Shown: piece by piece, positions 4,308 through 38,179 of the stretch
Numbering within the stretch: the first letter of the stretch is position 1
Layout: each line of letters begins with the position of its first letter
Source: a virus
Lineage: Duplodnaviria > Caudoviricetes
DNA length: 64,000 nt
Virus record (IMG/VR): IMGVR_UViG_3300037067_006488
Span: 1 to 64,000 of that record
Direction: 5' to 3' (one strand)
Program-made: the position numbers and the translations under genes
Notes under the pieces: model-generated
Databases searched by the model: none
Seen by the model: the letters and a program-made list of their open reading frames with translations, nothing else
Told to the model about the DNA's origin: nothing

Positions 4308-4943
4308 ATGAAGATAATAAGTTATTGTTTGTGGGGCGGTAACCCTAAATACATAAACGGGTTATATAGAAATATAGAGACAATTAAAAGCAAGCTGCCT
4401 GATTATAAAATATTTTTATATACCGACAAACGTATAATTATACCCAGCGTTGATATAAGGTGTTCTGATCGCAAGCAAAACAAATTAATGTTTGAGAGGT
4501 TTACCCCTGCCTCGTTTTCGGACGTTATGTACAGCAGAGACCTTGATTCCCCTATAAGTGACAGAGAAATAGCAGCCATGAAAGAGTTTGAGCAATCAGA
4601 TAAACTGTTTCATATAATGAGGGATCACCCTTGGCACAAAACAAGAATACCGGGCGGTATGTGGGGGGCAAAACGTGGAGCCATACCGGAGATGAACTAT
4701 CTTGTAGAGGAATATGTTGATAGGTATAAAAACGAATGGTTTAGCGATCAGTTGTTTTTGGCAGACCATATATACGACAGGATTAAAGGATCGGCGATGA
4801 TACACGATTCTTTTAGCCTATATCCCGAAGAAAACGCCCTACCGTTCCCCATACCAAGAGAGGGTGATGACTTTGTTGGAATGTCGTTACCGAGGGTTGA
4901 GGAACACCATAAAATATTAAGGGATGCTGAAAATATTATTTAA
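4308..4943 (+). CDS. putative glycosyltransferase-like protein of glycan clusters
   Basis: KIISYCLWG, SRDLDS (DxD), FHIMRDHPWH, GGMWG, DQLFL; embedded in the glycosyltransferase operon. Confidence 0.6.
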   Translation: MKIISYCLWGGNPKYINGLYRNIETIKSKLPDYKIFLYTDKRIIIPSVDIRCSDRKQNKLMFERFTPASFSDVMYSRDLDSPISDREIAAMKEFEQSDKLFHIMRDHPWHKTRIPGGMWGAKRGAIPEMNYLVEEYVDRYKNEWFSDQLFLADHIYDRIKGSAMIHDSFSLYPEENALPFPIPREGDDFVGMSLPRVEEHHKILRDAENII

Positions 4944-7900: not shown

Positions 7901-9246
7901 TTATATTGCCTCCTTATCAGATATATGAAATGGTGAAGAGGCTAAGGGCGGGGGATGAGTTTGTCTTCCCTTATGATGGTACGTTTGTTCGTGTGGGCAA
8001 CGGCATATACGATAGGGACGATAGTTATGTAAACATGATTAAACAGTCTTGGGATGTCGGCATATTAAGGGGTTTGGTGTTTTATGGTATGCAGAAGGAC
8101 GCAAAAGAAAGCATGGGCGGTGTGTTCGGTTATAAGAAAGACATATATTTTAAATACGGGGGAGAGAATGAGAATTATGTTTCTTATGCACCGGAGGATG
8201 CTGACAGGGCGCATAGATTCAAAATGTTCGCTAAGTACAGCCGTGTTCCTGGTTCAATATACCACATCAACCATTTTTGCGGTGTTGATAGCTCAAGCTG
8301 CAACCCTCATTTTAAGACTTCTCTAAAAGAGTGGGACAAGGTTTCTAAAATGGATAAAGATGAGCTTCTCTCGTATATAAAGACGTGGAAGTGGAATTAC
8401 GACAATATAAAGGAAATATCTGATTTAGGAGAGGCGTTAATAATGCCCGTTGCCAAAGAGAGGGTTGATTTAAGGGACGTTACTTTTATTATTCCGGTTA
8501 AATACGATCACCCCGACAGAAAAGAAAATTTAGACACAATACTTGCTTATATCAAGAAGTGGTTTAATGCCCCTGTTATTGTCGGGGAACAAGGAGGAAA
8601 TAGTTTTGGATATGTTGCAGGAAAAAATGTGCAATATATAAAGTTTGATGAGGTTTATTTTCATCGGACAAAGATGATAAACGACATGGTAAGAGAAGCC
8701 AATACACCTATTGTGTTTAATTGGGATGCCGACATAGTGATTGACCCACAACAAGTAATAGAGGCAATAAAAAAACTAAAAGATGCTTATTTTGTTTATC
8801 CTTATGACGGGCGTTTTGTTCGTCTACCAAGAGAGTGTGTTAGTGTGTTTCAGCAGAATGATTATGATGTAACATCTTTATTTGGGCTTGGCGACCACAA
8901 ATGGTATGAGCGGTACGATTCTGTTGGTGGTGTTATAGGCTTCAGGGTAGATAAGTTTTGGGAGGGCGGTGGAGAGAACGAAAACTTCATAAGTCATGGC
9001 GCTGAAGATGTATCCCGTGCATATCGCTTCACAACAATATACGGAGAGGACAAGGTTGTAAGAGTTGACGGGGTGTTGTTTCATTTCGACCATTACCGAT
9101 CTCAGGATTCAAAACACAACAATGAGTTTTATGTCCTTAATAATTCAGCATTGCGGATAACAAAAAGCAAGAATAGAGATCAGTTATTAGAATATATAAG
9201 ACGCTGGCCTTGGTCACACAAACACAATAAAAAACCCCTCTTATGA
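4924..9246 (+). CDS. 1440-aa multidomain glycan enzyme: GT-A + FkbM methyltransferase + GT25 + GT11 (alpha-1,2-fucosyltransferase-like) + two GT-A/GT7C-like domains
   Basis: FPTRERP/WADD; FEIGACEG/IHMDVQGAE; CINLPQSVDRR/CEDDI; GRLGNQLFQ/HIRRGDY/NSSFSWWGA; duplicated TFIIPxKYDHPDR and GGENENxxSxxxED. Confidence 0.88.
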   Translation: MLKILFNFPTRERPDRFRKSIDSIIFNIEQKGSFYVLVKLDKDDPCLQEYLSLRSLYTKHPIIWNVSKSKSKVDAINRDVALLDWDVMFSWADDIIAIQPGFDDTIRKEFEDPYTWPSFWDGYRKDDLITMCVISRQNYNKFGYVYHPDYTSVYCDNEMTEIARMLGRLKVIKEPQIVKHEHPALNTEIPFDGLYNLNDKSYDKDRQVFERRKSIGFLGKNREYGNAPLEYADVLYKYFDPDDALVIFEIGACEGEDTVKLQKTFPNAEIHAFEPIPYNYQISLGVVNKHTTLNQLALSDHIGEEYMYVSSGTPDDNSIVNYGNKSSSLLPPHKHKEIFGWCKFNEKTKVRVDTLKNYVVNNGISKIDFIHMDVQGAEMMVLNGCGDFIDNIGVIFLEVANMELYKGQPLSKDIARFFSGRFNLVYDDVTEIAGNQMWARIKPVLKFASIPKLCINLPQSVDRRYAIKQQFNRKGLDVEFFDAVEGRGIKPQEQMSSTEIACLRSHKGAIKIAKDRGYDSVFVCEDDIVFCDDFWKRIKYIESLNLDYDMFFLGGHFATPDSIYKDAIPTIHDNIWRVTRAAGAYAYIAKSSVYDRILDAEENLATDAFYCFILQRQINAYAFVPFLVSCAPCLSTITKQYTDYPQVKWFYAQNLDDMITFSKLGSYGRLGNQLFQVAATLALGRERGIAAKLPPRWIYRDYFGIPDEYYGGVSPDILVHVKEFHYDTSALRRADFDKNVDLFGYFQSEKYFLNIKDDILKWFTPEVKKLDKWSVGIHIRRGDYVGNPAHVNLRPEYYISAIDKYFSDKRYKFYICTDDVEYARLHFKGEQFVIEERTELQDFEILVSCRNHILANSSFSWWGAYLARSDKAIRPHESFSGVLSGLSDKDYWLDDWICHDDYRTDISDVTFIIPFKYDHPDRLANINMVIKMITNAFKTNIIIGEQGGRVLRVKYPKEWVDLNFVKDFHRTRMCNILTALAKTNIVVNIDTDIILPPYQIYEMVKRLRAGDEFVFPYDGTFVRVGNGIYDRDDSYVNMIKQSWDVGILRGLVFYGMQKDAKESMGGVFGYKKDIYFKYGGENENYVSYAPEDADRAHRFKMFAKYSRVPGSIYHINHFCGVDSSSCNPHFKTSLKEWDKVSKMDKDELLSYIKTWKWNYDNIKEISDLGEALIMPVAKERVDLRDVTFIIPVKYDHPDRKENLDTILAYIKKWFNAPVIVGEQGGNSFGYVAGKNVQYIKFDEVYFHRTKMINDMVREANTPIVFNWDADIVIDPQQVIEAIKKLKDAYFVYPYDGRFVRLPRECVSVFQQNDYDVTSLFGLGDHKWYERYDSVGGVIGFRVDKFWEGGGENENFISHGAEDVSRAYRFTTIYGEDKVVRVDGVLFHFDHYRSQDSKHNNEFYVLNNSALRITKSKNRDQLLEYIRRWPWSHKHNKKPLL

Positions 9247-25885: not shown

Positions 25886-25918
25886 GAAAAATAAAGCGGG
25901 GTGTTTTTTACCCCGCCC
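25886..25918 (-). terminator. intrinsic terminator ending the fibre cluster transcript
   Basis: GCGGGGT/ACCCCGC stem, followed on the - strand by TTTATTTTTC. Confidence 0.75.
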
Positions 25919-25978
25919 CTACAATAAAAACATATCAGCGTTATATCGTCTGTTGGTGTGTTGTGTAGATTAGGTTCA

Positions 25979-27838
25979 TTATAGAACAGTTATCGCATTC
26001 TTACTGTTGTTCTTTATCACATAATATATTATTACCGTTGGTGTTGTAAGACTACTATCATAATTTGCGTTTATTGTAATTACATTAGTCCCAGTTGTCA
26101 CCGACCATGAACCAGTTAACGTACCTGCTGAAACAGCATCATCTTCGGCTGTGCTTGCAAGTTCGATTGTCCCCGTATAACTTGCTGCTTTGTTGACATA
26201 TTGATATTTAACTATCCCGCTTATTGCTTGCATATCTGTCCCTTCAGTTGCGGTAATGGTATATTCAACAATTCCACCGCACATTCCTAATGTGGGTAAT
26301 GCAATGGTGGCTATTCCTGTGGCCGATCCGTCTGCTAATACTTTACTACCAGTAATAATTCTATCCACATTTGCTCCTGCGTGCATGACCCCGATTTTAA
26401 CATTACTTTCTTCACTTGTATTTGTTACATTAGTATGTGACCAACTTATCTTTCCTGCCATTCTTTCGTTTCCGGTTGCACTCTGAGCATATAAATCAAT
26501 TGATCCCCCAATCCCTGCTGCTGCTGTACCAGAACTAAGGCGAGATATTTTAATTTGACTTGTAATAGTATTTGTAGACGATGGATAACTTTGGAAGTCT
26601 GCTATTCTTGCTCCTGATGTGGTAGACATCCACCCAGCCAACCCAGATGTAGAGCTAAAATAGCCTCCGTAACCACTTACTGAAACACCCTGAACGCCTC
26701 TACCGCCACCTGAATTTAAACCATATACCGAACTCTTAGTGGCTGCTGCACTTGCTGATGTATTCGCATATAGCGCATAATCTAATTTACTGTAAGCAAA
26801 TAATCCATATAAGGAATCCGAACCAGAGTATGATCCTGATCCCTTTCCATAATTATAATACCATGCTCCGTATTTTGTATTATCAGTTGATATTGTTTGT
26901 GCATATATACCAGTCCCGTTTGTTGATTCTGCTTTAAGACCATATCCGTTGGTTGATCGACCTAAACCTCCTGTTTCGTGTGTGGATATAGCTATAAATC
27001 CAGGGCCGTAAGTACTTGTTGCAGATAATCCTCCGGTTAAATTACCAACAAAATTTCCACCATAATCAAATGTAGATGTAGCTCTTATACCATACTCTGT
27101 GTCACCATAAGCATCAATGGCCGGATAATTCAAGGCCGTTAATATAATCTGTGCTTTATGCGGTGAATATAATTTAAAACTTCCCGTTACATTATTAGTG
27201 GTAGTCCACGCTGTTCCATTGGTAGAATAAGCATGCATCGCCGTCCCCTCATTCTTTGTGTCTAATGAAATAGTACCACCAGACGGAGCAGCACTTCTCT
27301 GCATAACTATCCAATAACTTGTGCCTGCAACTAAATTTTGATTTGTAGTCTGTGTTCTTACTTCTTTATATGTTTTATCAAGATAACCATATCTCGCATT
27401 CTCTTGAATAACCCCAACTTTAGTTCCCGGAACACCAGCATTATCTGAATATATCCACATATACCAATAATTTGTAACATTTGTTATTGTCCCTGTTCGT
27501 TTAGCAAAAACACCAAACGATAGGATAGATATATTACTTGTCGGTGTGAACTTAAACGCTTCATAAGTATGAGCAAATTCCAAGTCAGTGCCTGTGTTTG
27601 CGCTGCCATCCAAAGCGACTATTTCAGAATGTGTGATCGTTAGGTTTTCTTTATCAACACCAGTACCATCTAAAGTTAGGTCTCCTGTTATATTCCCCGC
27701 ATTTATTGTAGCCTGTCCGCTTGTTTCTAACTGACTTCTTGTATATCCATTATTGTTGCCACCTATGCTTATTACTTGTTGTGCTTTTACGGTTAATACA
27801 GAAAATGATAGTATAAATAAAATAATTCCTGTTTTCAT
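25979..27838 (-). CDS. signal-peptide-bearing tail-fibre-like protein (Gly-rich beta repeats)
   Basis: MKTGIILFILSFSVLTVKA|QQ; repeated G.YG.S..G.G units; alternative start 27859. Confidence 0.75.
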   Translation of the reverse strand: MKTGIILFILSFSVLTVKAQQVISIGGNNNGYTRSQLETSGQATINAGNITGDLTLDGTGVDKENLTITHSEIVALDGSANTGTDLEFAHTYEAFKFTPTSNISILSFGVFAKRTGTITNVTNYWYMWIYSDNAGVPGTKVGVIQENARYGYLDKTYKEVRTQTTNQNLVAGTSYWIVMQRSAAPSGGTISLDTKNEGTAMHAYSTNGTAWTTTNNVTGSFKLYSPHKAQIILTALNYPAIDAYGDTEYGIRATSTFDYGGNFVGNLTGGLSATSTYGPGFIAISTHETGGLGRSTNGYGLKAESTNGTGIYAQTISTDNTKYGAWYYNYGKGSGSYSGSDSLYGLFAYSKLDYALYANTSASAAATKSSVYGLNSGGGRGVQGVSVSGYGGYFSSTSGLAGWMSTTSGARIADFQSYPSSTNTITSQIKISRLSSGTAAAGIGGSIDLYAQSATGNERMAGKISWSHTNVTNTSEESNVKIGVMHAGANVDRIITGSKVLADGSATGIATIALPTLGMCGGIVEYTITATEGTDMQAISGIVKYQYVNKAASYTGTIELASTAEDDAVSAGTLTGSWSVTTGTNVITINANYDSSLTTPTVIIYYVIKNNSKNAITVL

Positions 27839-27865
27839 TACTATAAATATATTCTTCATAACATC

Positions 27866-29695
27866 CTAATTTAATTGTATCCTTATATCCGTACCCTGGT
27901 TAATAATACTGTCAACTCCAAAGCCTATCCTTCCCGGTGGTGGTGGATTCGGATTACTTGCCTCTGTCACCGTTACTGTCCACTCCTGAGTTGATTCATC
28001 CAGTGCTGTCACCGTGTAAACAACCGGAGAAGTAAAGTCTGTTGCTGTTCCGCTTGTAGGTGAAATTGTCGCTCCTTCTGATACTGTTATCGTAGGTTGT
28101 AATGCTGTTACTGACGTGCCGTATTCTACTTCGATACTCACAGTATGATTTGCGGTGTCTATTGTGGCTGTGCCTGTTTGTTGAGTGAATATGAAAGTTA
28201 GGATGTTGTTGTCGGTGGTGTCAAGAAACCCATATTCCGAGTAACCCAAATCGGGAGCTGAACCAAAGAATGTTAATACCACTCCTGACGAATCCGATTC
28301 AGGGATTTGTATGCCTCCGTCTATTAAATCAGAACCTTCTTTTAGTTTTAGGAAGGTTATATCGGGCAATGCTCCCCCCGCCTTTCGGGAAGCTGTCATT
28401 TGAGCCACTCCCTGAACTGAATCAGTTAAAATAAAATCATCATCGGTTACGGTGAAATCTAAAGATAAACAGGACTTAGGCACGCTTCCAATATCACATG
28501 AATCGAAAGTATTATTTGATTCTGTGTATGCTTGCCAAAAAACAGCATAATAAGGTCTCATGGCAGCATCAAATCCTAAAGGTTCATAAGATATATTATT
28601 CCTGTAAACACTCATAGGGTAAAGACAATCATTACTGCTTGCTGAAAAATTACCCGTATTCCTATATGCTGTGTTGTTATAAAGTAAAGAACCGTCTTTA
28701 TAATATGGATCATAGTCAGACTGTCCGAATCCAGCTCCTGTATTAAAGGCAGCTATGTTGTTTCTTAAAATCCTGTCGTAACCAATGGAATCCCCTAAAT
28801 GCAATACTCCTTCACCATCTATATACGCACTGTCGCCCCTTGCTGCTCCGAATTTAAACCCGGTTCCATCCCTTGCTCCAATAAATCCATGTAAAAATGA
28901 CCAGCAATCTTTAAATAAAAAATCCCCACTGCCGCTAATATCGAATCCGTCATCTGTACAGTTCCATGCCCTGCATCCTATCCATTCAAGATAACCACCC
29001 GCTTCACTATCACACTTCCAACCATCCGCACCATTACCCGGGACCACACTCAGGGAATCATTACAGTTATAAGCATCACAATTAATAAAACGAGTAGTAT
29101 CTGTTTCGATTCCATTAAATCCACAAGTGCCGGAATAGGCAAACCCACGACCGCCAATATTATAAGCAATGCAATTTTCAAATGTCATGTTGTGAGGATA
29201 CCAACCTGCACCAAAGCCAGAGGCAACGCTGCCATTCAGGGGTTGTAATACATTTCTTAATGTAAGCCCTTTGAAATACAAATAGCCTGTATTATTTAAG
29301 TCAATACCGCTGTTTGATGTGTTGCCGGTAGTGTCAACGTTAATGCAATCTAAAATCGGAGTTTCACCGGGATATGCAAAAAAACAAATAGGATTTTCCG
29401 CTGTCCCTGTATGGCCTATGCCGCTTGATGGACTATAATATGTTGTATGGATATATACAACGCTATTGCCGTAAGAGTGTTCTGAGGGATACCAAATCCC
29501 TGATCTAAAATATACCGTATCCCCTGCATCTGCCGTTTCAAAAGCGTGCTGCCAAGTAGCCCAGGGAAGGCTTATATCCGTGCCCGTGTTTTCATCACTT
29601 GCATTTGCGTTATATGCCGTATCCTGCACATAATATGTAGCTGAATTAGCGATTAAAGAAAAGCAGACAAATAATATAATTAGTTTTAGTTTCAT
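27866..29695 (-). CDS. signal-peptide-bearing PL9-like right-handed beta-helix lyase/depolymerase with a C-terminal DUF5018-like Ig domain
   Basis: ATYYV..PWATWQHA..AGDTVYFRSG; NGADGWK..GCRAWNCTDDGFD..GFKFG; ATISPTSG..DFTSPVVYTVTA. Confidence 0.8.
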   Translation of the reverse strand: MKLKLIILFVCFSLIANSATYYVQDTAYNANASDENTGTDISLPWATWQHAFETADAGDTVYFRSGIWYPSEHSYGNSVVYIHTTYYSPSSGIGHTGTAENPICFFAYPGETPILDCINVDTTGNTSNSGIDLNNTGYLYFKGLTLRNVLQPLNGSVASGFGAGWYPHNMTFENCIAYNIGGRGFAYSGTCGFNGIETDTTRFINCDAYNCNDSLSVVPGNGADGWKCDSEAGGYLEWIGCRAWNCTDDGFDISGSGDFLFKDCWSFLHGFIGARDGTGFKFGAARGDSAYIDGEGVLHLGDSIGYDRILRNNIAAFNTGAGFGQSDYDPYYKDGSLLYNNTAYRNTGNFSASSNDCLYPMSVYRNNISYEPLGFDAAMRPYYAVFWQAYTESNNTFDSCDIGSVPKSCLSLDFTVTDDDFILTDSVQGVAQMTASRKAGGALPDITFLKLKEGSDLIDGGIQIPESDSSGVVLTFFGSAPDLGYSEYGFLDTTDNNILTFIFTQQTGTATIDTANHTVSIEVEYGTSVTALQPTITVSEGATISPTSGTATDFTSPVVYTVTALDESTQEWTVTVTEASNPNPPPPGRIGFGVDSIINQGTDIRIQLN

Positions 29696-30432
29696 AATCC
29701 ATATTTAGTAACCAAATAATTATATATTGCCGTTTCATCATCATCGGTGTCGTCAATGCTTCTTAAAATAAATTCTTTAATTGAAAAGTTACCATAAACG
29801 GCCTGTGTAGATATTCTTCCTAAGTGAATACCATCCATCACCCCCGTCCCGAAATTACCCGTTACGGCTGTTTCTGTGTCTATTTGTATTTTAGATGAAG
29901 CACCGCTAAAAACAATTCTCAACACCACCCATTCACCTATTGCCGCATAAGACAACTCGGATGAAACGCCCCCCGAATAGGCAAGGATATTGGGCGTAGT
30001 CCCGTATTGTTGAATAACTCCATTAGCATTTGAAAAGCCACTAAACAAACCTTCACCGTCCGTCCATGATTCTTGCCTGATAACTGCATAAATCTGGTGT
30101 GGCTGAGATAATCCGGTAATTTCAATTACCGCTCTGTCATTATCACCGTCAAAGATTACAGAATCACCCCGGAATATCGGTCTGCCGGTCTGCCCAAAAT
30201 TTGAAAGCAAATGATAATCATTACCTGATATATCATTCCATACTGTTAAGGAATCATTTATTTCTGTAATATTATCCGCACTTGCAACATACCATGCCAC
30301 CGTATTCGCATTAAGAACATCAGGAATCCCGTCATCAACCGCCCCGCTCCCCCTATAAAACGGATACCTCCCTATCTGCCCGAACATAAGGACAGACAAG
30401 AATAATAAGGGAATTGTTATTAATCGTTTCAT
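29692..30432 (-). CDS. signal-peptide-bearing ConA/LamG-like lectin-fold protein
   Basis: MKRLITIPLLFLSVLMFG|Q; VAWYVA..WNDISGNDYHL..FDGDND..IYNYLVTKYG. Confidence 0.72.
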   Translation of the reverse strand: MKRLITIPLLFLSVLMFGQIGRYPFYRGSGAVDDGIPDVLNANTVAWYVASADNITEINDSLTVWNDISGNDYHLLSNFGQTGRPIFRGDSVIFDGDNDRAVIEITGLSQPHQIYAVIRQESWTDGEGLFSGFSNANGVIQQYGTTPNILAYSGGVSSELSYAAIGEWVVLRIVFSGASSKIQIDTETAVTGNFGTGVMDGIHLGRISTQAVYGNFSIKEFILRSIDDTDDDETAIYNYLVTKYGL

Positions 30433-30435
30433 GGC

Positions 30436-31362
30436 TTAATATGTTGGTACTTTATATCCTGAAAGTGTAAGTATCAGTAATGACGGTTTATTCCCGGCAC
30501 TTACCCCGCTTATCGTACACCAAACAAACACACCGGGAGGGATAACAGCATTAGCAAAACTGGTATCATTATCTCCTGTCGTTATACTCGTTACCGTGTA
30601 AGCAGATTCATTTAAGTTTGTCGCTGAACCAGATTTAAAGGTTGCGTGCCAAGATACTTGTACCGCCACCGTTTCCGTTCCACTCCCTTCAGCAAGTACA
30701 CCCCGTAAAGCTGTTACGTGTATTGTGTCGCTTCCCGCATTATAAAATGAACCTGCTATTGCATTGTTGGTGAACGAAGCCGTGTCAGCCGCTAATCCAC
30801 TGCCAAGCCCAAAGACAAATATCGGTATCGTATCTGTCTTTAGATTTATGTCATTTGTATTCAACGGAATTGCGGAAAACACCCCGTCATCCATTCCGAA
30901 TATAGTATCCACACTCGCCACCTCATTTGCACCTATCGTAAAGGCCGCAAGGCTGTCATGGACTATTGAAGATACATTTGCCGCCGTCTGGAAACTCGTT
31001 AAATCTCCGGCTACTGTGAAGGCAGAATCAACTAAGGCTGATTGTGTAACATACGTACTTAAATCTCCAGCCACAACAAACGCTGAGTCCACAAGTGCTG
31101 TTTGCTTTACATAATTTACAACTGTATCATGGACAATCCCTGATACGGTAGCGGCATCAACTCCACTTACTTCTAATAAATCAGAATAAGAGGCTATACC
31201 TCCCACCGCTCCGGTGGTGTCTGCCCAATGCAACACATTAGCTGAGTCCGCAGCCCATGAAGCGTCTGAACTGGTTGAACTGCTCCCGCTAATACTGATA
31301 ACCTGCTGCCCGAATGATATACTGCATATCAGGCTTAATACAATAATAAGTTTTGTTTTCAT
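30436..31362 (-). CDS. signal-peptide-bearing fibre-like protein with an internal 20-aa tandem repeat
   Basis: MKTKLIIVLSLICSISFG|QQ; YVxQxALVDSAFxVAGDL twice. Confidence 0.72.
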   Translation of the reverse strand: MKTKLIIVLSLICSISFGQQVISISGSSSTSSDASWAADSANVLHWADTTGAVGGIASYSDLLEVSGVDAATVSGIVHDTVVNYVKQTALVDSAFVVAGDLSTYVTQSALVDSAFTVAGDLTSFQTAANVSSIVHDSLAAFTIGANEVASVDTIFGMDDGVFSAIPLNTNDINLKTDTIPIFVFGLGSGLAADTASFTNNAIAGSFYNAGSDTIHVTALRGVLAEGSGTETVAVQVSWHATFKSGSATNLNESAYTVTSITTGDNDTSFANAVIPPGVFVWCTISGVSAGNKPSLLILTLSGYKVPTY

Positions 31363-31365
31363 GCG

Positions 31366-31617
31366 TTAATCGTTTTTCTTTATCTTAAACAACCCCAAAG
31401 TTAACCCTTCTATAAGAGTGTCCTTTGCCAACAACAAGGCATACCCTAACATAAATACAGGTATTATATCCCTGACGGGGAATAATGCCGGAGAATCGTT
31501 AATAATGGCCTTAATATCGGCATATATCATGAACAAAGCATATAGGGTGATCGGTATACCCATTAACGTTGTTCTCCAATTCTGAAACCGTCTCTTTATG
31601 TTCTCTTGTTGGCTCAT
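31366..31617 (-). CDS. putative holin (2 TM)
   Basis: NWRTTLMG motif followed by two TM segments; start assigned to ATG 31617. Confidence 0.6.
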   Translation of the reverse strand: MSQQENIKRRFQNWRTTLMGIPITLYALFMIYADIKAIINDSPALFPVRDIIPVFMLGYALLLAKDTLIEGLTLGLFKIKKND

Positions 31618-34600
31618 GGTGTATATATGTTTTCGTCTATCGTACCTATCGTCCCTGAAACATAGAACAGAACTTCCGAATCGAAAGCACCTACCGATAT
31701 GCTTCCCGATACGGTGTCTCCGTCTGTGTCTATAAACACACAATTCCCTAAACTAAAAGAATGAGACGCATCCGACCAGTTGCTAAACACCTGTGTAAAG
31801 TCAGCCTCCGATATTCCCGTAACATCGTCGAATGTCCAGTTGTTCTGATTGTAGGTTGACCCTAATTCCCATCCAATATAAGTACCCCATTCTGCAAGAG
31901 TATAAAGCTGCTTGTCTCCCCAATTATGCCTTGACCCTATTATCTTACTGTCGCTCCTGAAAGGATTGAAATAATAGTTGTTGTTAATTGTCATACCCGT
32001 AAAGGATGGTGTATTGTCGTCGCCCCAAGTAAAGCCCGTTGATCCTGTCTCGTCCGTAGCAACAACAGTGTTGTACTGCCACGTCAGATAGTTGGCGTTA
32101 CCGTCGAAAGGCCCCTCTTTGTAAAAACCCGATTGATAACTGTAATAACCGTCAACATCGTGATCTACCGACAAGTTATAGGTAAAAGAGTTGTTGTTGG
32201 AGTTGTATTGGTTAAAGAAACCAACGCCTACACCTACGGTTGTGTTGTTTGTAACGGTAGTATACGCTTGTTTTTCGTCAAGATATATCCCCTGTGTAAT
32301 AGGATAATTCCTGCGCATAAACGAATAATCCGTACCCTGATTAACGACTAAGTTGTTGTTAATGCTTTTGGCTTTGTTTAACATAAACTGATGTACGTAG
32401 ATACCCCCTCCGTCTGTTAGATGTTCGCAAAAGTCGGTAATGTAATTGTTGGCAATAGAAAACGTGCCGTGTGCCAAACCGTCGTAAGCAATAGCCGCAA
32501 TACCCGAATAACCCGTATGTGCAATATAATTACGTTGATACAACAAATTAGATTTGGGGTTCTTAGAATAAAGTCCGTAATACCCTGCAATAGCATCGTC
32601 CCATCCGGGTGTAGAGCCAACACCGTCTATCCAACACCCAACTACTTGTTCGTCTCCCGCTAAACTACCCTGGAAGAATATACCTGCACCGTTAGCGTTC
32701 ATAACAGTGTCGTACCTGTGATAAATGTCGTAGGAGTTATAAATATATATCCCTGCATAAGCAGAATAGTCCGTATTAACATACTCTGTTGTTATATCAT
32801 GGGAGTTCTTGATAGATATATTATACTTGTGCGAACCCCATGTGCTTATGTCTTTTAATGTTATGTTGTAGGAGTCATCTATTGATATGATAGAGTCTTC
32901 TACGGGAGCATATATTGTTAACGAAGAAGGATTTGTGGTGTGATACAAAGTGATAGTCTGTGTCGCATAGTCGTACTTCCACTCCCCGTTCTGGTCAGGC
33001 GTAGTGTTAAACAACGCATAACCAAGTTTAGTCCCTGATGTGTAATGTTTAAGACTATATCCGCTTGTAAAATAAGATGATGTTAGGTTAAACCTTGTTG
33101 CTGTATTGCTGGCAATTTTAACTTTGTCTGCCAACCAATCCTCTACGTTAATATAAGCATAAGCATTTTGATATTGGTTCGTTGTCATACTAAGGTCTGT
33201 ATCGTCAAAGTAAGACAAGAAGTCAGAAGCCACCCCTTCCATTTCATACCATCCCGTATTAGGAGTGCGGGCATTTTGATACCATGTGCCGTTAATAAAC
33301 AAACCGTTAAGGAGTGCTATTCCGTTATCGGTATCTTGGTTTTCGTAATAATCCTTTTCTGTGTCAGGTAATACCACGTCACTCTTAGTCCATAGGTTAG
33401 TGCCCGCACTCGACCAACTTGTTAATTGTTTTGTGCCGTATATAGTAGGACTTATATTACCGTACTTATTCCAACCTACGAGTGTTATATCGTTAGCACT
33501 GTGTATAATAATATTACCGTAGTAAGCAGTATCGCTTATCGCTATTGTTGTAGCTGTAGCCGCCCCTGCAATAATAGAGTTAAGTTCTGTTAAGGTTTGT
33601 TTGGGGGTTGACGCCGTTAAGCCGTCGTTAGCATCGTTCCCGTCAACAGCACAGAAATAGTAATCTGCGGTAACAGGAGTTGTAGGCACTGCTGCACCGT
33701 ATTCTTTATATCCCATACTTGGTGTTGTGCTCCACTGTACGCCGTATAAGTCGTATTCGATAGCAAGGTCTGTGCCTGCATGATAGGCAGGGCTGTATGT
33801 GTTTATCTCGTAAGCAGAATGTCTGCCGTTGACAAACAAAGGATCACCCTCTAAAGAATGCGTCCCCCTTGTCCAAGAACCGTCATCAGGAAAGAATAAA
33901 TTGTAGTCTTCTTCAACATCCCCGTTGTTGTCGTAAATCGGGTAGTCATCATATCCACTTGTGGTATGGATAATATTATTCTTAACTTTTACACCCGAAC
34001 ACCCGCTCCAAACATATATTCCCCTTGGGGTATTGGCGTTGTACGTGGCATAATCTACAATAGTATTGTTGTATATTTCAGCATTGTCGGTAACGTTGTT
34101 TAGTTCTATTGCGGCAAACCAACTGTTGATAATAAGATTGCCGTATATCTCTAAATTAATATTACCGTTAGTTACGTTATATTGTGGCTCTCCTGAAGTG
34201 TTGGGGGTATAAAAACCACGCGTACCGTTCTTAATTACGTTGTACCTAATAATACATTCAGGAGCAAGATATACTGATAAACCCGCCTGTCCCCAATCGT
34301 TGTACGCGTTATAACACTCCATCCTGTTGTGTTCGATAATAGAACCCGATGCAGTGCCGTTATAATTAGCAATATACTTTAAACAATGTTTATATGTCGT
34401 ATTGCTGCGGTCAAGAAGATTATATTTAAAATGACAGTAGTTGCTAAAATATGCGCTTGATGCGCCCCAATCCATACAGTCGCCGTTACCCGCAGACCCA
34501 CGAGAGTTAACATTATAAACATAATTACCTTCTACTGTTACCATGTCGTCAGAACTTGCGCCCCCCCATCCAAAAACGTATACGCCATCTTCAAGAGTCT

Positions 34601-36131
34601 CGTGAATAAGACAATTCTTCAAACCGCCTCCATATATTTGGGCTATACGCATAAGTTGATAGGTTCTTGTTGCGGCATTAGATCGTATCTCGCAATTGTC
34701 AAATGTCACATTATAACAAATACCGTGTGTAAAAACAGTAGCCAATCCTCCTGCTGAACTATATAAATCTATATCCCGTATTGTAATATTAGACCTGTTA
34801 GTTATATCTATTAACCCGTAAGAATCCCCTAAAGAAATTGCTGCTTTTAATATGGGTCTTGTGCCTACACCGTAAGCACCGTAAAACACGTTGTCCTGTG
34901 ATATGTATTCAGGCGTGGTTACACTAAACTCTTGTCCTCTTTTTAAGAAATAATATCTTCCTGATACCTGTGTGAAGTTCATATTGGTGTAATCACCTCC
35001 AACCCCAACAAGATAAGTAAGAGAAGAGTCTATAACCGTTATGTTTACCGTCCCTGTGCCTGTAAGGAACCCGTCGGTAACAGAATATGTCAGTGTATAC
35101 GATCCGTCTGCGGCGTGTGCCTGTATCTTAACGGTAGAATCTGCTATCGCAAAATAGTCTGCACCCGTACCCCCTGTCTCTGTCCATGTTAACGTTCCTC
35201 TCTTTTCGTAGTTACGGTTGTAATTAAGTTCAAGAACAACATCGTCGGCTGCATTTTCTTCTGCGATAGTTACATCTTGATCGTGAGCAATAGGGTATGT
35301 GCTGCTGATTATATTCTTTGCAATAGCATACCTGAAAAGACCCGCTTGCCTTATTATCTGTTGTGCGCCTGCCCTCATAAACCAAACGTGTCTTCCTGTT
35401 GTCGGGGTATATGTCCCCTCTCCTCCGCCTCCGCCTCCGGCAACACCTAATATAAAGTTGGTTGTGCCGTTATCGTATAGGCTGTCTATCTGTGCGTCTG
35501 TTAACGCATAGTTGTAATATTGAAAGTTATCTATATATCCGCTAAAAGAACTCCATCCATCGGCAGTTAAGTTGCCTATTGTTAGAGCATTTGTGTAATC
35601 TACAGGGCTGTTCATTATGCTGTCCGTAGTCTGATCTACGCCGTCAATATATATACGCCCGTATTGACTTGTTGCGCTATATTTAATAAATACTGCGTGT
35701 GTCCATGTGTTGTAGCTATATACACCCGTTCCTGTTCCGGCATTATCTGTAGCATACGCATCCCTAAAATACACTCTTCTGTTAGCTGCATCTAAATAAG
35801 CCTTTAACCCGTTAGCCTGAAAAGCAAAAGGATAGGGAGCCCCCGTTGTCTGTCCGTTACGAAACCAAAAGCTGATTGTTAAACCAGCCCCCGTATTAAG
35901 ATTAAGTTCTGTTGTTGTTGTTGCGTCGTCCTGCTGTCCGTTACGAAAATAAATAGAGTGTGTTGCCTCTTCGTAATATGTTGAGCTGTAACTTACCCCT
36001 CCGGTATTAAAAGAATAGTTACCCATGCTATCCACCGCCTCGTTATTAAAGAACACAGCCATTTGCGGTGGCTGCCCTTTAACATACGCTAAAGCAAAAA
36101 AAAAGAATAATATCGTTATATATCGTTTCAT
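31614..36131 (-). CDS. 1505-aa signal-peptide-bearing adhesin/depolymerase: LamG + cadherin-like Ig + two right-handed beta-helix regions
   Basis: MKRYITILFFFFALAYVKG|Q; TISFWF..WTH..YIDG..GYIDNFQYYNYAL; G6 linker; YTLTYSVTDG; Asn-rich parallel beta-helix repeats. Confidence 0.8.
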   Translation of the reverse strand: MKRYITILFFFFALAYVKGQPPQMAVFFNNEAVDSMGNYSFNTGGVSYSSTYYEEATHSIYFRNGQQDDATTTTELNLNTGAGLTISFWFRNGQTTGAPYPFAFQANGLKAYLDAANRRVYFRDAYATDNAGTGTGVYSYNTWTHAVFIKYSATSQYGRIYIDGVDQTTDSIMNSPVDYTNALTIGNLTADGWSSFSGYIDNFQYYNYALTDAQIDSLYDNGTTNFILGVAGGGGGGEGTYTPTTGRHVWFMRAGAQQIIRQAGLFRYAIAKNIISSTYPIAHDQDVTIAEENAADDVVLELNYNRNYEKRGTLTWTETGGTGADYFAIADSTVKIQAHAADGSYTLTYSVTDGFLTGTGTVNITVIDSSLTYLVGVGGDYTNMNFTQVSGRYYFLKRGQEFSVTTPEYISQDNVFYGAYGVGTRPILKAAISLGDSYGLIDITNRSNITIRDIDLYSSAGGLATVFTHGICYNVTFDNCEIRSNAATRTYQLMRIAQIYGGGLKNCLIHETLEDGVYVFGWGGASSDDMVTVEGNYVYNVNSRGSAGNGDCMDWGASSAYFSNYCHFKYNLLDRSNTTYKHCLKYIANYNGTASGSIIEHNRMECYNAYNDWGQAGLSVYLAPECIIRYNVIKNGTRGFYTPNTSGEPQYNVTNGNINLEIYGNLIINSWFAAIELNNVTDNAEIYNNTIVDYATYNANTPRGIYVWSGCSGVKVKNNIIHTTSGYDDYPIYDNNGDVEEDYNLFFPDDGSWTRGTHSLEGDPLFVNGRHSAYEINTYSPAYHAGTDLAIEYDLYGVQWSTTPSMGYKEYGAAVPTTPVTADYYFCAVDGNDANDGLTASTPKQTLTELNSIIAGAATATTIAISDTAYYGNIIIHSANDITLVGWNKYGNISPTIYGTKQLTSWSSAGTNLWTKSDVVLPDTEKDYYENQDTDNGIALLNGLFINGTWYQNARTPNTGWYEMEGVASDFLSYFDDTDLSMTTNQYQNAYAYINVEDWLADKVKIASNTATRFNLTSSYFTSGYSLKHYTSGTKLGYALFNTTPDQNGEWKYDYATQTITLYHTTNPSSLTIYAPVEDSIISIDDSYNITLKDISTWGSHKYNISIKNSHDITTEYVNTDYSAYAGIYIYNSYDIYHRYDTVMNANGAGIFFQGSLAGDEQVVGCWIDGVGSTPGWDDAIAGYYGLYSKNPKSNLLYQRNYIAHTGYSGIAAIAYDGLAHGTFSIANNYITDFCEHLTDGGGIYVHQFMLNKAKSINNNLVVNQGTDYSFMRRNYPITQGIYLDEKQAYTTVTNNTTVGVGVGFFNQYNSNNNSFTYNLSVDHDVDGYYSYQSGFYKEGPFDGNANYLTWQYNTVVATDETGSTGFTWGDDNTPSFTGMTINNNYYFNPFRSDSKIIGSRHNWGDKQLYTLAEWGTYIGWELGSTYNQNNWTFDDVTGISEADFTQVFSNWSDASHSFSLGNCVFIDTDGDTVSGSISVGAFDSEVLFYVSGTIGTIDENIYTP

Positions 36132-36135
36132 ATCT

Positions 36136-37398
36136 TTATTTTCTAAATAACTTGAATCGTTTCTTTTTTATAGGCGTTGCTCTCTCTAATGCTTCTATTC
36201 TTGCCTCTAACTCCGCTTGTTTTTTCTCTACGTCTGCTATATTGCGGAGGTTATATTCTATGCCCGCTTGTAAAGCCTGAAGATAACGCATAGGGGGTAG
36301 TTTGTCCACCATAAATGTATTGTATATAGTACCGTCTACCTGATAATACCACCGTACCTCGTAGTTAAGCATTTCTTCAAGGCGTTGTGTCGCCGTTCTT
36401 ATCTTATTCATTTCAAAAATAAAGGATGCTGGTTCTGTTGTGGCTGTGTCTATTGCACTTGTACTTGTGCCTGTCAGCCATGAACTTGACATATCTCCGA
36501 AGATTGTAAGATATACAGAGTCCCTTATTGCAACAGTGCCGTCTACATCAAGAGCTTCACTTGGAGATGTTGTCCCTATACCAATATCCCCCGTTGTTCT
36601 TTCTACAAAGAAAGAATTACCTGCGTCTGAGGTGATTGTTAATCCTCCGGTAATAGCTTTAAAATCTTGTGATCCATTCCCGTCGTCTGTGTTCTGTATT
36701 CTTATTGCGGGACTTGCTCCGTATATATGCGTAATAGTAGCGGGAGAGTGAGTTCCTATCCCAATATTCCCTAATAGCGTGAGATTACCGTTTCCAAACA
36801 TTTGTATATTGTTTGTGCCTGCTGTATTTTGTACCGACAAACTATAATTATTATCGTTGCCGTTCTTAAAAACAACTCCATATCCAGTTGCGCTTGTGTT
36901 ACTAAACAAACCGATAACATCTGCCGCAATTGACTTTTGTGCATGGAATAAATAAACAGGAGCTATCCCTATACCAACATCTTTAGTGGTAGATAGAGTG
37001 GTGTCTGTTGTCGTCCAATCCCCGACATCTATATTTGATAAATCGTATTGTGTTGCTATTGTAGAAGTGGTGTCAGCCCAATGTAAAAGATTAGCGGAGT
37101 CGGCAGCAAATATAGGATCAGATTCTACACTTACAAACCCCGCAAGAGAATCGCTTACAACAGAAGCAGCTACAGATTCGGCAGTATTTAAAACATAGGT
37201 TTTAATAGCCTGAGAAGACGGTAATGTTTTGTCGCTTGTTGTCGTCAAGGTAGTATCTATTACAACTCCCGTCACCCATCCGTTAGTCTCGTCAAAATAC
37301 ACGGAGTCTATGTTGATTGCGCCCATCTGGAACACCGCCTGTGAATAAGCCGTAGAACCTACAACAAACAACGCTAATATGAATAATATCTTCCTCAT
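36136..37398 (-). CDS. signal-peptide-bearing tail-fibre-like protein (GIGT..P repeats, C-terminal coiled coil)
   Basis: MRKILFILALFVVGSTAYS|Q (ATG 37398); VGIGIAP, NIGIGTHSP, DIGIGTTSP; KQAELEARIEALE. Confidence 0.75.
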   Translation of the reverse strand: MRKILFILALFVVGSTAYSQAVFQMGAINIDSVYFDETNGWVTGVVIDTTLTTTSDKTLPSSQAIKTYVLNTAESVAASVVSDSLAGFVSVESDPIFAADSANLLHWADTTSTIATQYDLSNIDVGDWTTTDTTLSTTKDVGIGIAPVYLFHAQKSIAADVIGLFSNTSATGYGVVFKNGNDNNYSLSVQNTAGTNNIQMFGNGNLTLLGNIGIGTHSPATITHIYGASPAIRIQNTDDGNGSQDFKAITGGLTITSDAGNSFFVERTTGDIGIGTTSPSEALDVDGTVAIRDSVYLTIFGDMSSSWLTGTSTSAIDTATTEPASFIFEMNKIRTATQRLEEMLNYEVRWYYQVDGTIYNTFMVDKLPPMRYLQALQAGIEYNLRNIADVEKKQAELEARIEALERATPIKKKRFKLFRK

Positions 37399-37727
37399 TT
37401 TATCAACTGAATTAAGTCCTTTAATGTTATCATGTCGGCAAGGGATACAACAGTAAACATAAGAACAACCATGTAAACAACAGACTGTACCGGATGTTTC
37501 GACACCCATGCTGAAACCACACTGTCTTGCTTTACACATCGTATATCGTCCTCTGTCTTTGTCACCCTGCCGTTTGTCTTCTTTTGGTGTTCTATCATAT
37601 CGTCCTGCTTCTCGAAGACGGATTTAAACCTTTCTTCCATTATCCCTTCAAGTCTGCCGACAATAGCATCCAAATAATCCCTGTCTTGCATATTCATAGG
37701 TAGATACCGTGTAAAGTCATTAGACAT
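37395..37727 (-). CDS. small coiled-coil membrane protein (holin/XhlA-like)
   Basis: Coiled coil containing TNGRV followed by one C-terminal TM. Confidence 0.55.
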   Translation of the reverse strand: MSNDFTRYLPMNMQDRDYLDAIVGRLEGIMEERFKSVFEKQDDMIEHQKKTNGRVTKTEDDIRCVKQDSVVSAWVSKHPVQSVVYMVVLMFTVVSLADMITLKDLIQLIK

Positions 37728-38179
37728 TAATAATATATTTTGATACGTCCCGATGTTACGCTATTCCATACGATTGTGAAAGCCACATACCCACCCGGCC
37801 AATCTTTGTCGGTTATAAAAGACTGACGAGCAACAGTGTATCTTGTGCCGTCACTCTTGCGTATTGTCTTTGCGTTTGTTGTTGCGTCGAGGATAACACT
37901 ATCTGCCGACGTAGAGCCACTCCATTGCAGATCGCCAGCCCACACTCCGTAGGCATCCGCTAACCCTATCTTCAGCACTGCATCGTCTGCATTTAGATCG
38001 GAATAGTCTACAATTATCGCATTTACATCCTGCGCTACGTTAAGGATGAATGTTGTTGTGTCGTAGGCGTAATACGTGGCTGCACTCCAATTAGCCTCTA
38101 TATCACCTATCCTTTGTGTCTGTGCTTTAACACCTAACGCACACAACATAAATAAACCGAGAACAATTATCTTTTTCAT
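37727..38179 (-). CDS. signal-peptide-bearing small beta protein
   Basis: MKKIIVLGLFMLCALGVKA|Q (ATG 38179, 20 nt after TAAATTTG). Confidence 0.75.
   Translation of the reverse strand: MKKIIVLGLFMLCALGVKAQTQRIGDIEANWSAATYYAYDTTTFILNVAQDVNAIIVDYSDLNADDAVLKIGLADAYGVWAGDLQWSGSTSADSVILDATTNAKTIRKSDGTRYTVARQSFITDKDWPGGYVAFTIVWNSVTSGRIKIYY

What the first reader, a model, noticed from the sequence alone, without database searches (positions are those of the whole stretch)
27866..37398. Exported proteins are dense in the Bacteroidota O-glycosylation sequon, linking them to the phage glycosyltransferases
Hand counts of D-[ST]-[AILMTV]: 10 in the 308-aa protein (half of its 20 Asp), 8 in the 420-aa protein (6 in the first ~135 aa) and 11 in the 609-aa protein. 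For comparison, there are about 4 in the 766-aa terminase and 2 in the 486-aa capsid protein. The 1505-aa (8) and 626-aa (1) proteins are not enriched. This sequon is the established target of the phylum-wide periplasmic O-glycosylation system, whose glycans often contain fucose and methylated sugars. Inference: export lets the phage have its fibres glycosylated by the host, while its cytoplasmic fucosyl-, glycosyl- and methyltransferases remodel the lipid-linked precursor. The result would be a glycan-coated appendage system.
Basis: partly seen in the sequence, partly recalled or inferred. Interest (0 to 1): 0.82.

Follow-up and report, generated by a model that had tools for sequence, protein, structure and literature searches.

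The report
Exported, sequon-rich phage fibre proteins
An uncultured phage of Bacteroidota gives seven late, fibre-like and enzyme-like proteins the host's secretion signal, and three of them carry three to four times the chance number of the host's sugar-attachment motif, so they are probably glycosylated in the periplasm; a link to the phage's own sugar-transferase genes is only weakly supported.

Summary
The counts are exact and the enrichment is real. D-[ST]-[AILVMT] occurs 10, 8 and 11 times in the 308-, 420- and 609-aa proteins, against 2.3-3.1 expected. Control motifs are not enriched, D-[ST] followed by any other residue is depleted, and 40 cytoplasmic ORFs of the same phage are at chance.

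All seven proteins (25979-38179, minus strand) have Sec leaders, six with Gln at +1 (the Bacteroidota Q-rule). They close the late virion operon, just before a strong terminator.

The 308-aa protein belongs to a large phage-only family (706 clusters at 50% identity):
- 41 of 42 5'-complete genes carry a leader.
- The variable N-terminal parts hold about 4 times the expected sequons; flanking positions carry almost no information.
- The Ser/Thr ratio and the third-position preferences resemble the published glycosite logo.
- The conserved C-terminal jelly-roll knob keeps three near-invariant D-T-x sites.

Neighbouring exported proteins are not enriched, so export alone does not explain the density. 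Host O-glycosylation of exported proteins is the best explanation, but it is unproven.

Virion membership is not shown. The link to the glycosyltransferase operon rests on GT11-type genes in 3 of 10 related records. Earlier notes of this scan describe the same phenomenon in many other genomes.

The parts
37727..38179 (-). 150-aa exported protein, first gene after the 1863-aa tail/internal protein. The leader ends V-K-A|Q-T. 2 sequons against 1.1 expected.
37395..37727 (-). 110-aa protein without a leader, inside the cluster. Its stop overlaps the start of the 420-aa gene, which supports the 37398 start.
36136..37398 (-). 420-aa exported fibre-like protein (leader ends A-Y-S|Q-A). 8 sequons against 2.6 expected, 6 of them in residues 31-132, and all 8 D-[ST] are followed by an allowed residue. 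The centre resembles G-I-G-T-x-x-P tail-fibre repeats of proteins with the S74 chaperone domain. The C-terminus is a coiled coil.
31614..36131 (-). 1505-aa exported protein with a LamG/ConA-like domain and a right-handed beta-helix (leader ends V-K-G|Q-P). Not enriched (8 against 6.6).
30436..31362 (-). 308-aa exported protein (leader ends S-F-G|Q-Q). It has a sequon-dense variable N-part (7 sites) and a conserved C-terminal jelly-roll knob (residues about 175-308) with three near-invariant D-T-x sites at D177, D193 and D212. Founder of a phage family of at least 706 clusters.
29692..30432 (-). 246-aa exported LamG-like protein. The mature N-terminus Q-I-G-R-Y-P-F-Y is conserved in related phages. 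Not enriched (2 against 1.1). A related domain forms the N-terminus of a leaderless 755-aa 'virion structural protein' of Erythrobacter phage ZS04.
27866..29695 (-). 609-aa exported Pel9A/PelN-like pectate-lyase beta-helix with a DUF5018-like C-terminal domain. The leader ends N-S-A|T-Y-Y-V. 11 sequons against 3.1 expected.
25979..27859 (-). 626-aa exported protein with a choice-of-anchor R domain (leader ends V-K-A|Q-Q). 1 sequon against 2.2 expected. Last gene of the late operon.
25893..25919 (-). Strong intrinsic-terminator-like hairpin (10 pairs, 6 G-C, T-run) 60 nt after the 626-aa gene. It ends the long minus-strand virion operon.
2035..9246 (+). Glycan operon: SAM methyltransferase, GT2, radical-SAM protein, a 211-aa protein and a 1440-aa multi-domain protein (FkbM methyltransferase, GT25, GT11, GT7C-like, GT2-like). 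No hydrophobic segment reaches membrane-helix level, so all are predicted cytoplasmic. No flippase, initiating transferase or ligase was detected.

Best explanation
The seven genes at 25979-38179 are late phage genes whose products leave the cytoplasm through the host Sec pathway and are cut by signal peptidase I. Three of them are the 308-aa fibre-plus-knob protein, the 420-aa fibre-like protein and the 609-aa pectate-lyase-like beta-helix. In these three, and in the whole phage family of the 308-aa protein, selection maintains a high density of D-[ST]-[AILVMT]. The most likely reason is that in the periplasm of a Bacteroidota host this tripeptide is the acceptor of the general O-glycosylation system. 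The extended, protease-exposed shaft and the knob would then be coated with the host's O-glycan.

Shown: the leaders; the motif-specific excess; its family-wide conservation; and its absence from neighbouring exported and cytoplasmic proteins.

Inferred: actual export, actual glycosylation, and the benefit (stability or shielding).

Open: whether the glycosylated proteins join the particle after lysis or act on the host envelope as soluble or anchored factors.

The cytoplasmic glycosyltransferase operon cannot act on Sec substrates directly. If it is connected at all, it must work on a lipid-linked glycan. I give that about 0.2.
For: (1) Exact counts and shuffles. Control motifs are flat, and D[ST] followed by a non-Phi residue is depleted. 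A Markov-1 null still leaves a 2-fold excess.

(2) All seven proteins have an n-region, an h-region and small residues at the cleavage site; six have Gln at +1. This matches the Bacteroidetes Q-rule (PMC5837995, PMC10653852).

(3) Host phylum: the only cultured terminase relatives infect Flavobacterium, Cellulophaga, Tenacibaculum and Maribacter.

(4) Family of the 308-aa protein:
- 53 close homologues and 706 clusters at E <= 0.001.
- Of 42 5'-complete genes in metagenome loci, 40 have an SPI leader with Gln and 1 has a lipoprotein leader. The 19 leaderless entries among these loci are cut by contig ends.
- N-parts of the complete genes: 249 sequons against 60.8 expected; only 33 D[ST] followed by a non-Phi residue.
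- One representative per N-part cluster: 40 against 14.2.

(5) Among 811 family sequons the flanks carry at most 0.41 bit, Ser:Thr is 55:45, and the third position ranks L > I, A, T > V > M. This is close to the glycoproteomic logo described in PMC12871550.

(6) Specificity:
- Gene +1 (LamG-like, 55 of 55 with a leader) has 66 against 62.9; gene +2 has 112 against 66.3.
- Cytoplasmic ORFs of 10 related phages have 111 against 114.7.
- Distant fibre homologues of the 420-aa protein have 59 against 65.9, and only the closest, leader-bearing one has 12 against 2.3.

(7) The review states that motif Ser/Thr in non-cytoplasmic proteins are generally nearly fully substituted, and that engineered motifs become glycosylated.

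(8) Late co-expression: the cluster is contiguous with the tail genes and ends at a terminator.
Against: - No residue has been shown to be modified, and no host is known.
- Leaders were judged by rule and by eye, not by a trained predictor.
- The three knob sites are always Thr and lie at strand starts or in a loop of a confidently folded domain, so they could be structural.
- About 8% of the N-part sequons sit in one recurring D-T-A-x-M-L repeat.
- Leader-bearing virion proteins of cultured phi18:3 are sequon-poor (3 against 9.7 in total), so export of phage tail-region proteins does not always go with sequon gain.
- A few family members are lipoproteins, which fits envelope anchoring better than a free fibre.
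Confidence: 0.55

Rival explanations
1. The D-[ST]-hydrophobic excess is a structural feature of this fibre and knob architecture (turn or strand-start motifs, short repeats) and has nothing to do with glycosylation.
For: - The three knob sites are near-invariant, always Thr, and placed at strand starts or in a loop of a high-confidence beta-sandwich.
- A fourth conserved D-T/V-S site keeps Asp but not Thr.
- Recurrent D-T-A-x-M-L and D-S-L-x-x-x repeats exist in the N-parts.
- No leaderless family members exist to serve as a control.
Against: - The flanks of 811 sites are almost information-free, Ser and Thr interchange freely (55:45), and the third position follows the glycosite preference.
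- Unrelated N-part clusters are each enriched.
- Two unrelated folds in the same phage, the beta-helix 609-aa and the fibre-like 420-aa proteins, are also enriched.
- The reversed and Glu/Asn variants are not enriched.
- Distant fibre homologues are not enriched.
Confidence: 0.15
2. The exported proteins are not parts of the particle. They form a periplasmic or surface-acting module: a polysaccharide lyase, lectin-like LamG proteins and a fibre-like binder. This module strips or masks the host's surface glycans (receptor destruction, superinfection exclusion, freeing progeny from debris). They are glycosylated simply as resident envelope proteins.
For: - Sec leaders are universal in the family, and some members are lipoproteins.
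- The conserved part is the C-terminal knob and the variable part is N-terminal, the reverse of the usual receptor-binding fibre layout.
- The same cassette sits in podovirus-like and siphovirus-like tail modules, next to the lysis genes.
- The 609-aa protein resembles secreted bacterial pectate lyases from its first mature residue.
- The phage has other large leaderless tail proteins; the 1200-aa protein matches phi18:3 virion proteins gp114/gp115.
Against: - The cluster is co-transcribed with the virion genes and lies where fibres normally lie.
- The best fold match of the knob is a phage tail fibre tip (9rkv, Z 8.6, rmsd 4.1 A, 117 residues), although Z near 8 is common.
- The LamG domain is part of an annotated virion protein in Erythrobacter phage ZS04.
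- Leader-bearing proteins of phi18:3 are annotated as virion proteins from MS/MS.
Confidence: 0.35
3. The phage glycosyltransferase operon has a target other than the O-glycan of the exported proteins. Candidates are host LPS or capsule intermediates (surface conversion), or direct cytoplasmic glycosylation of leaderless virion proteins, as in mycobacteriophages and chloroviruses.
For: - The operon lies more than 18 kb from the cluster, on the other strand, among non-structural genes.
- GT25, GT11 and FkbM domains are typical of LOS and O-antigen outer-chain synthesis (family descriptions; own knowledge).
- In related record G006, a GT2-epimerase-GT11-GT4 block sits directly before the head-tail connector gene.
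- In cultured phages GT11 is almost confined to cyanomyoviruses, whose hosts lack the Bacteroidota system.
- Multi-domain transferases that build capsid glycans in the cytoplasm are known in chloroviruses (own knowledge).
Against: - 3 of 10 cassette-bearing records carry GT11-type genes, against 0.2% of cultured phage records.
- phi18:3, which is sequon-poor, and its cultured relatives have none.
- Bacteroidota O-glycans are often methylated and, in Bacteroides fragilis, fucosylated (own knowledge), which fits FkbM plus GT11.
Confidence: 0.6

Closest known systems
Substrates of the general protein O-glycosylation system of Bacteroidota (review PMC12871550)
   Same: Sec-type leader, non-cytoplasmic destination, D-[ST]-[hydrophobic/Thr/Ala] acceptor motif, and Ser/Thr and third-position preferences like the published logo.
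   Different: The proteins are encoded by a phage, in its late virion operon. Site density is far higher than usual (3.2 per 100 residues in the 308-aa protein). The review does not mention phages, and no glycan has been demonstrated.
Phage proteins obeying the Bacteroidetes Q-rule in Porphyromonas gingivalis prophages (PMC10367356)
   Same: Phage-encoded proteins with SPI leaders that expose Gln. That paper proposes they use the host's secretion system.
   Different: Those are a few unknown-function genes of temperate phages. The paper makes no connection to fibres, and the word stem 'glycosyl' does not occur in it.
Leader-bearing virion proteins gp085-gp087 of Cellulophaga phage phi18:3 (NC_021794.1; annotated from MS/MS proteomics)
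   Same: Three consecutive SPI/Gln-leader proteins next to the lysis genes of a distantly related podovirus of Flavobacteriia. The record annotates them as structural.
   Different: No detectable sequence similarity to the seven proteins here. They are sequon-poor (1 each, against 2.9-3.7 expected). That phage has no GT11 gene.
Virion glycosylation by phage or virus-encoded transferases (mycobacteriophages; chlorovirus multi-domain transferases; own knowledge)
   Same: A virus carries its own multi-enzyme glycan machinery. The 1440-aa protein strings several transferase domains and a methyltransferase together, like the chlorovirus enzymes.
   Different: In those systems the virion proteins are glycosylated directly in the cytoplasm. 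Here the sequon-rich proteins are Sec substrates, which must cross the membrane unfolded and unglycosylated.
Tailspike or depolymerase receptor-binding proteins with a pectate-lyase-like beta-helix
   Same: The 609-aa and 1505-aa proteins have the right-handed beta-helix, and they occupy the usual position after the tail genes.
   Different: Known tailspikes are made and assembled in the cytoplasm and have an N-terminal particle-binding domain. Here the mature protein starts directly with the beta-helix after a cleavable leader.

Membership tests
Substrate of the Bacteroidota general O-glycosylation system | Protein is non-cytoplasmic (Sec leader or membrane topology) | tested here: met
   All seven proteins have an n/h/c-region leader; six have Gln at +1. 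41 of 42 5'-complete family genes carry a leader. This is prediction by rule, not by experiment.
Substrate of the Bacteroidota general O-glycosylation system | D-[ST]-[A/I/L/V/M/T] motif in soluble regions | tested here: met
   10, 8 and 11 sites against 2.3-3.1 expected. Family-wide excess of about 4-fold.
Substrate of the Bacteroidota general O-glycosylation system | Host belongs to Bacteroidota and has the system | tested here: inconclusive
   Indirect only: all cultured terminase relatives infect Flavobacteriia; Q-rule leaders; a DUF5018 domain. The host itself is unknown.
Substrate of the Bacteroidota general O-glycosylation system | Glycan actually attached to the motif Ser/Thr | not testable with these tools
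   Needs glycoproteomics.
Tailed-phage tail fibre / receptor-binding protein | Encoded in the late structural operon next to the tail genes | tested here: met
   Contiguous with the 1863-aa, 1200-aa and other virion genes on the minus strand; terminator at 25893-25919. The same position is seen in 10 related phage loci.
Tailed-phage tail fibre / receptor-binding protein | Fibre or knob fold related to known fibres | tested here: inconclusive
   The knob model (pLDDT > 90) best matches the Agrobacterium phage 7-7-1 tail fibre (9rkv: Z 8.6, rmsd 4.1, 117 residues aligned). Discoidin/CBM domains and XepA score about the same, and Z near 8 is common. The N-part is modelled poorly.
Tailed-phage tail fibre / receptor-binding protein | Made and assembled in the cytoplasm (no export signal) | tested here: not met
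   The leader is conserved throughout the family.
Tailed-phage tail fibre / receptor-binding protein | Present in purified particles | not testable with these tools
   No cultured relative of these proteins was found. There is only the analogy to phi18:3.
Pel9A/PelN-like pectate lyase (609-aa protein) | Match to the family profile above its curated cut-off | tested here: met
   PF22842 scores 44.8 bits against a cut-off of 25.2, over residues 19-353. The NCBIfam PelN equivalog scores 101 bits, far below its 740 cut-off, so this is a relative and not an equivalog. Catalytic residues were not examined.
Host-type outer-glycan (LFG-like) locus for the O-glycan | Several glycosyltransferases together with a flippase | tested here: not met
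   Transferase and methyltransferase domains are present, but Pfam finds no flippase, initiating transferase or ligase in 2035-9246, and there are no membrane segments. The operon could only act with host components.
Type IX secretion cargo | Recognisable C-terminal sorting domain | tested here: inconclusive
   No Pfam or NCBIfam CTD model matched any of the seven proteins.

The most novel reading that the evidence does not exclude
Tailed phages of Bacteroidota mature their host-recognition appendages in the periplasm. The fibres are exported by Sec, coated by the host's general O-glycosylation machinery, and join the particle only at lysis. In this lineage a phage-encoded cytoplasmic assembly line (FkbM, GT25, GT11 and further GT-A domains) rewrites the lipid-linked outer glycan, so that the appendages carry a phage-specified sugar coat.
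Probability: 0.12. Interest if true: 0.9.

Novelty: new variant of a known kind. Interest (0 to 1): 0.66.

Why it matters
All parts of tailed phages are thought to be made and assembled in the cytoplasm, and protein glycosylation of phage particles is known only from cytoplasmic, phage-encoded transferases. Here a large, phage-only protein family carries two host-specific marks: a universal Sec leader and a strong, motif-specific excess of the host's O-glycosylation acceptor. Together these point to a periplasmic stage in the life of phage late proteins.

If the proteins are virion fibres, this changes how assembly, host range and antibody or lectin recognition of Bacteroidota phages, including gut phages, should be studied. 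If they are envelope-acting factors, it defines a widespread exported module between the tail and lysis genes.

Either way, it gives the Bacteroidota O-glycosylation field a natural, very densely sequoned substrate set to test.

Tried and rejected
The metagenome scan was used instead.
- Apparently leaderless family members looked like a possible cytoplasmic control. Among the metagenome loci, the 19 leaderless entries are ORFs cut by contig ends and the one 5'-complete exception has a doubtful start. The leaderless database proteins could not be checked against their contigs. No such control is available.
- PHROGs gave nothing for any of the seven proteins.
- tblastn against 50,697 phage records gave no match for the 308-, 420- and 1505-aa proteins, and only a short C-terminal match for the 609-aa protein.
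- A pattern scan of one genome per 185,579 prokaryote species found no relative of the knob, and so no prophage copies. The scan is pattern-based, so this is not proof of absence.
- A second, more divergent alignment could not be used for a locus scan.
- No glycosyltransferase homologue lies within 6 kb of the family gene in 76 metagenome loci. This is uninformative, because the operon here is more than 18 kb away.
- Type IX secretion C-terminal domains: no model matched.
- Literature searches for exported or O-glycosylated phage fibres found no description. Two of these searches were too broad to be useful.

Full report
**Setting.** The window is the first 64 kb of a 77,283-bp IMG/VR virus record, with CheckV completeness of 67%. 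One long minus-strand operon runs from small and large terminase through the following genes:
- 867-aa portal and 486-aa capsid protein;
- several mid-size proteins;
- a 1200-aa protein homologous to virion proteins gp114/gp115 of Cellulophaga phage phi18:3;
- a 1863-aa protein;
- the cluster in question.

The only cultured relatives of the terminase, at about 24% identity, infect Flavobacterium, Cellulophaga, Tenacibaculum and Maribacter. A Bacteroidota host is therefore likely, but it is not known.

| Protein | Observed D-[ST]-[AILVMT] | Expected (shuffle) |
|---|---|---|
| 308 aa | 10 | 2.3 |
| 420 aa | 8 | 2.6 |
| 609 aa | 11 | 3.1 |
| 1505 aa | 8 | 6.6 |
| 626 aa | 1 | 2.2 |

- The first three have p of 0.004 or less. 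The last two, and all leaderless virion proteins, are at chance.
- The excess is specific to the motif. Pooled over the seven leader-bearing proteins it is 42 against 19.6 (z 5.6). The reversed tripeptide, Glu/Asn/Gly in place of Asp, and Ala/Gly in place of Ser/Thr are all flat.
- D-[ST] followed by a residue outside the allowed set is depleted (18 against 30). Forty cytoplasmic ORFs give 48 against 41.8.
- In the 420-aa protein all eight D-[ST] dipeptides are followed by an allowed residue; in the 308-aa protein ten of eleven are.
- A first-order Markov expectation still leaves a two-fold excess in each of the three proteins.
- One internal 20-aa duplication, and a block shared by the 308- and 420-aa proteins, lower the independent count only slightly. 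No DNA tandem repeat is present.

**Export.**
- Each of the seven proteins starts with a basic n-region, an uncharged hydrophobic core and a small-residue cleavage site. Six of the seven expose Gln. This is the Bacteroidetes Q-rule for signal peptidase I substrates (PMC5837995, PMC10653852).
- The 609-aa protein is predicted to be cut just before T-Y-Y-V, where its Pel9A-like beta-helix match begins.
- The cluster ends at a strong terminator-like hairpin at 25893-25919.
- The next genes downstream encode a 121-aa protein, a phosphoesterase, an N-acetylmuramoyl-L-alanine amidase and a TnpB-like protein.

**What the proteins are.**
- 609 aa: a pectate-lyase-like beta-helix with a DUF5018-like domain.
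- 1505 aa: LamG plus beta-helix.
- 246 aa: LamG-like. A related domain forms the N-terminus of a leaderless 755-aa 'virion structural protein' at the end of the tail module of Erythrobacter phage ZS04.
- 626 aa: contains a choice-of-anchor R domain.
- 420 aa: shares its centre with tail-fibre proteins that carry the S74 chaperone domain.
- 308 aa: a poorly modelled N-part and a confidently modelled C-terminal jelly-roll (pLDDT above 90). The best structural match is the tip of the Agrobacterium phage 7-7-1 tail fibre (Z 8.6, rmsd 4.1 A, 117 residues). Discoidin/CBM domains and XepA score almost the same, so this shows only a common knob-like or sugar-binding fold.

**The family of the 308-aa protein.**
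- A word-indexed search found 53 proteins that share the C-terminal domain at 42-83% identity over that domain (100% for the window's own copy), behind unrelated N-parts.
- A profile search of 1.84 billion representatives found 706 clusters at E <= 0.001 and 283 at E <= 1e-30.
- Ten IMG/VR contigs and 76 metagenome loci carry the domain. A pattern scan of one genome per prokaryote species found none.
- In the metagenome loci, 40 of 42 5'-complete genes have an SPI leader with Gln, one has a lipoprotein leader, and one is doubtful. The 19 leaderless entries among these loci are truncated by contig ends.
- The gene is followed by a second leader-bearing gene in 55 of 55 distinct cases, and by a third in 33 of 35.
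- In the viral contigs the cassette sits after tail genes of both podovirus-like and siphovirus-like modules, and before the holin/endolysin genes.

**Sequons across the family.**
- The knob keeps three near-invariant D-T-x sites (D177, D193, D212 in the window's protein). Pooled, the knob has 163 sites against 34 expected.
- The variable N-parts of complete genes hold 249 against 60.8 expected, with only 33 D-[ST] followed by a disallowed residue.
- Taking one representative per unrelated N-part cluster still gives 40 against 14.2.
- Over 811 N-part sites the flanking positions carry at most 0.41 bit, Ser:Thr is 55:45, and the third position ranks L > I, A, T > V > M.
- The review of the Bacteroidota system reports a slight Ser preference and a third-position order led by Leu and Ile. 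It says Glu is not tolerated in place of Asp in Bacteroides fragilis (though seen rarely elsewhere). It also says the motif Ser/Thr are generally nearly fully substituted, and that engineered motifs become glycosylated.
- The tripeptide itself, not a longer structural repeat, therefore looks like the unit under selection. Only about 8% of the sites fall in one recurring D-T-A-x-M-L repeat.

**Controls that argue against trivial explanations.**
- Export alone does not bring enrichment. The LamG-like gene +1 has 66 against 62.9, and gene +2 has a modest 112 against 66.3.
- Cytoplasmic ORFs of the ten related phages have 111 against 114.7.
- Distant fibre homologues of the 420-aa protein have 59 against 65.9. 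Its closest, leader-bearing homologue has 12 against 2.3, with no disallowed D-[ST].

**Are they virion parts?** This is not settled.

For:
- operon position;
- fibre, lectin and depolymerase domain types;
- the ZS04 fusion;
- a lead from earlier notes of this scan, which I checked. Cultured phi18:3 has three consecutive proteins (gp085-087) with clear leaders and Gln at +1, and its record annotates them as structural 'based on experimental MS/MS proteomics'.

Against:
- those three proteins are not homologous to the ones here;
- they are sequon-poor (1 each, against 2.9-3.7 expected);
- some members of the knob family are lipoproteins;
- the conserved end is C-terminal.

An exported receptor-destroying or masking module therefore remains a serious rival.

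**The glycosyltransferase link.**
- The operon at 2035-9246 is real. It encodes a methyltransferase, a GT2, a radical-SAM protein, a 211-aa protein and a 1440-aa protein with FkbM, GT25, GT11, GT7C-like and GT2-like domains. None has a membrane segment.
- Because Sec moves unfolded chains, these enzymes cannot glycosylate the exported proteins directly.
- Of the ten cassette-bearing viral records, three carry GT11-type genes:
  - the close relative G001, with the same giant protein at 59% identity;
  - the complete 53-kb G003, with formyltransferase, FkbM, GT11 and GT25-like genes;
  - the 86%-complete siphovirus-like G006, with a GT2-epimerase-GT11-GT4 block directly before its head-tail connector gene.
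- The other seven records are 36-66% complete.
- Among 50,697 cultured phage records only 104 have a GT11 match. Almost all are cyanomyoviruses and none is from Bacteroidota.
- This hints at association but does not test it. The baseline is not matched, the sample is small and one hit is not independent.
- LPS or capsule conversion, or direct cytoplasmic glycosylation of leaderless virion proteins, are at least as likely as targets.

**Prior knowledge.**
- The review of Bacteroidota O-glycosylation does not mention phages.
- The Porphyromonas gingivalis phage survey noted a few unknown phage proteins that obey the Q-rule, without any link to fibres or glycosylation.
- My literature searches found no description of exported or O-glycosylated phage fibres.
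- Earlier notes of this scan report the same combination of leader and sequon excess on fibre-like phage proteins. A word search returned 69 notes in at least 59 genomes, and the eight shown all describe this combination in other genomes. Those are unchecked AI notes and were used only as leads.

**Verdict.**
- Export and the selected sequon density are well supported by sequence.
- Host O-glycosylation is the best explanation (about 0.55) but is unproven.
- Virion membership is open.
- The glycosyltransferase link is weak (about 0.2).

Noticed in passing
window 22983-24173 (-): A TnpB/IS605 OrfB-like gene (OrfB_IS605, Cas12f1-like TNB and HTH domains) sits inside the phage lysis region. It overlaps the end of the amidase gene (24151-24849) by 23 nt.
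   Followed up: no
L020:32891-38583 (Cellulophaga phage phi18:3 gp085-087): Three leader-bearing proteins annotated as virion proteins by MS/MS carry only 1 sequon each (3 in total, against 9.7 expected). This is apparent avoidance, the opposite of the window's proteins.
   Followed up: partly
L018:1-3757 (record G006): A GT2 / NAD-epimerase-dehydratase / GT11 / GT4 block lies immediately upstream of the gp6-like head-tail connector gene of a siphovirus-like relative. The glycan genes are therefore embedded in the structural module.
   Followed up: partly
P0010, P0027, P0105, P0155, P0168: A subgroup of the knob family has a lipoprotein leader (L-S-G-C followed by I-G-T-K-I-Y or M-T-K-I-Y) instead of the SPI/Gln leader, and is equally sequon-rich.
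   Followed up: partly
L012:6932-9199 (Erythrobacter phage ZS04): The LamG-like domain of the 246-aa protein occurs, without a leader, as the N-terminal 230 residues of a 755-aa 'virion structural protein' of an alphaproteobacterial siphovirus.
   Followed up: partly
window 46686-50288 (-): The 1200-aa protein matches phi18:3 gp114 (residues 846-1006) and gp115 (residues 1014-1134). Two adjacent virion genes of phi18:3 therefore correspond to one gene here.
   Followed up: no
(phages collection): GT11 fucosyltransferase-like genes in cultured phages are almost confined to Synechococcus/Prochlorococcus myoviruses (104 records). None is in a cultured Bacteroidota phage.
   Followed up: no
window 31366-31743 (-) and 37399-37539 (-): The 125-aa ORF overlapping the start of the 1505-aa gene, and the 47-codon upstream extension of the 420-aa gene, are Cys/Arg-rich and look spurious. 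The ATGA overlap with the 110-aa gene supports the 37398 start.
   Followed up: partly
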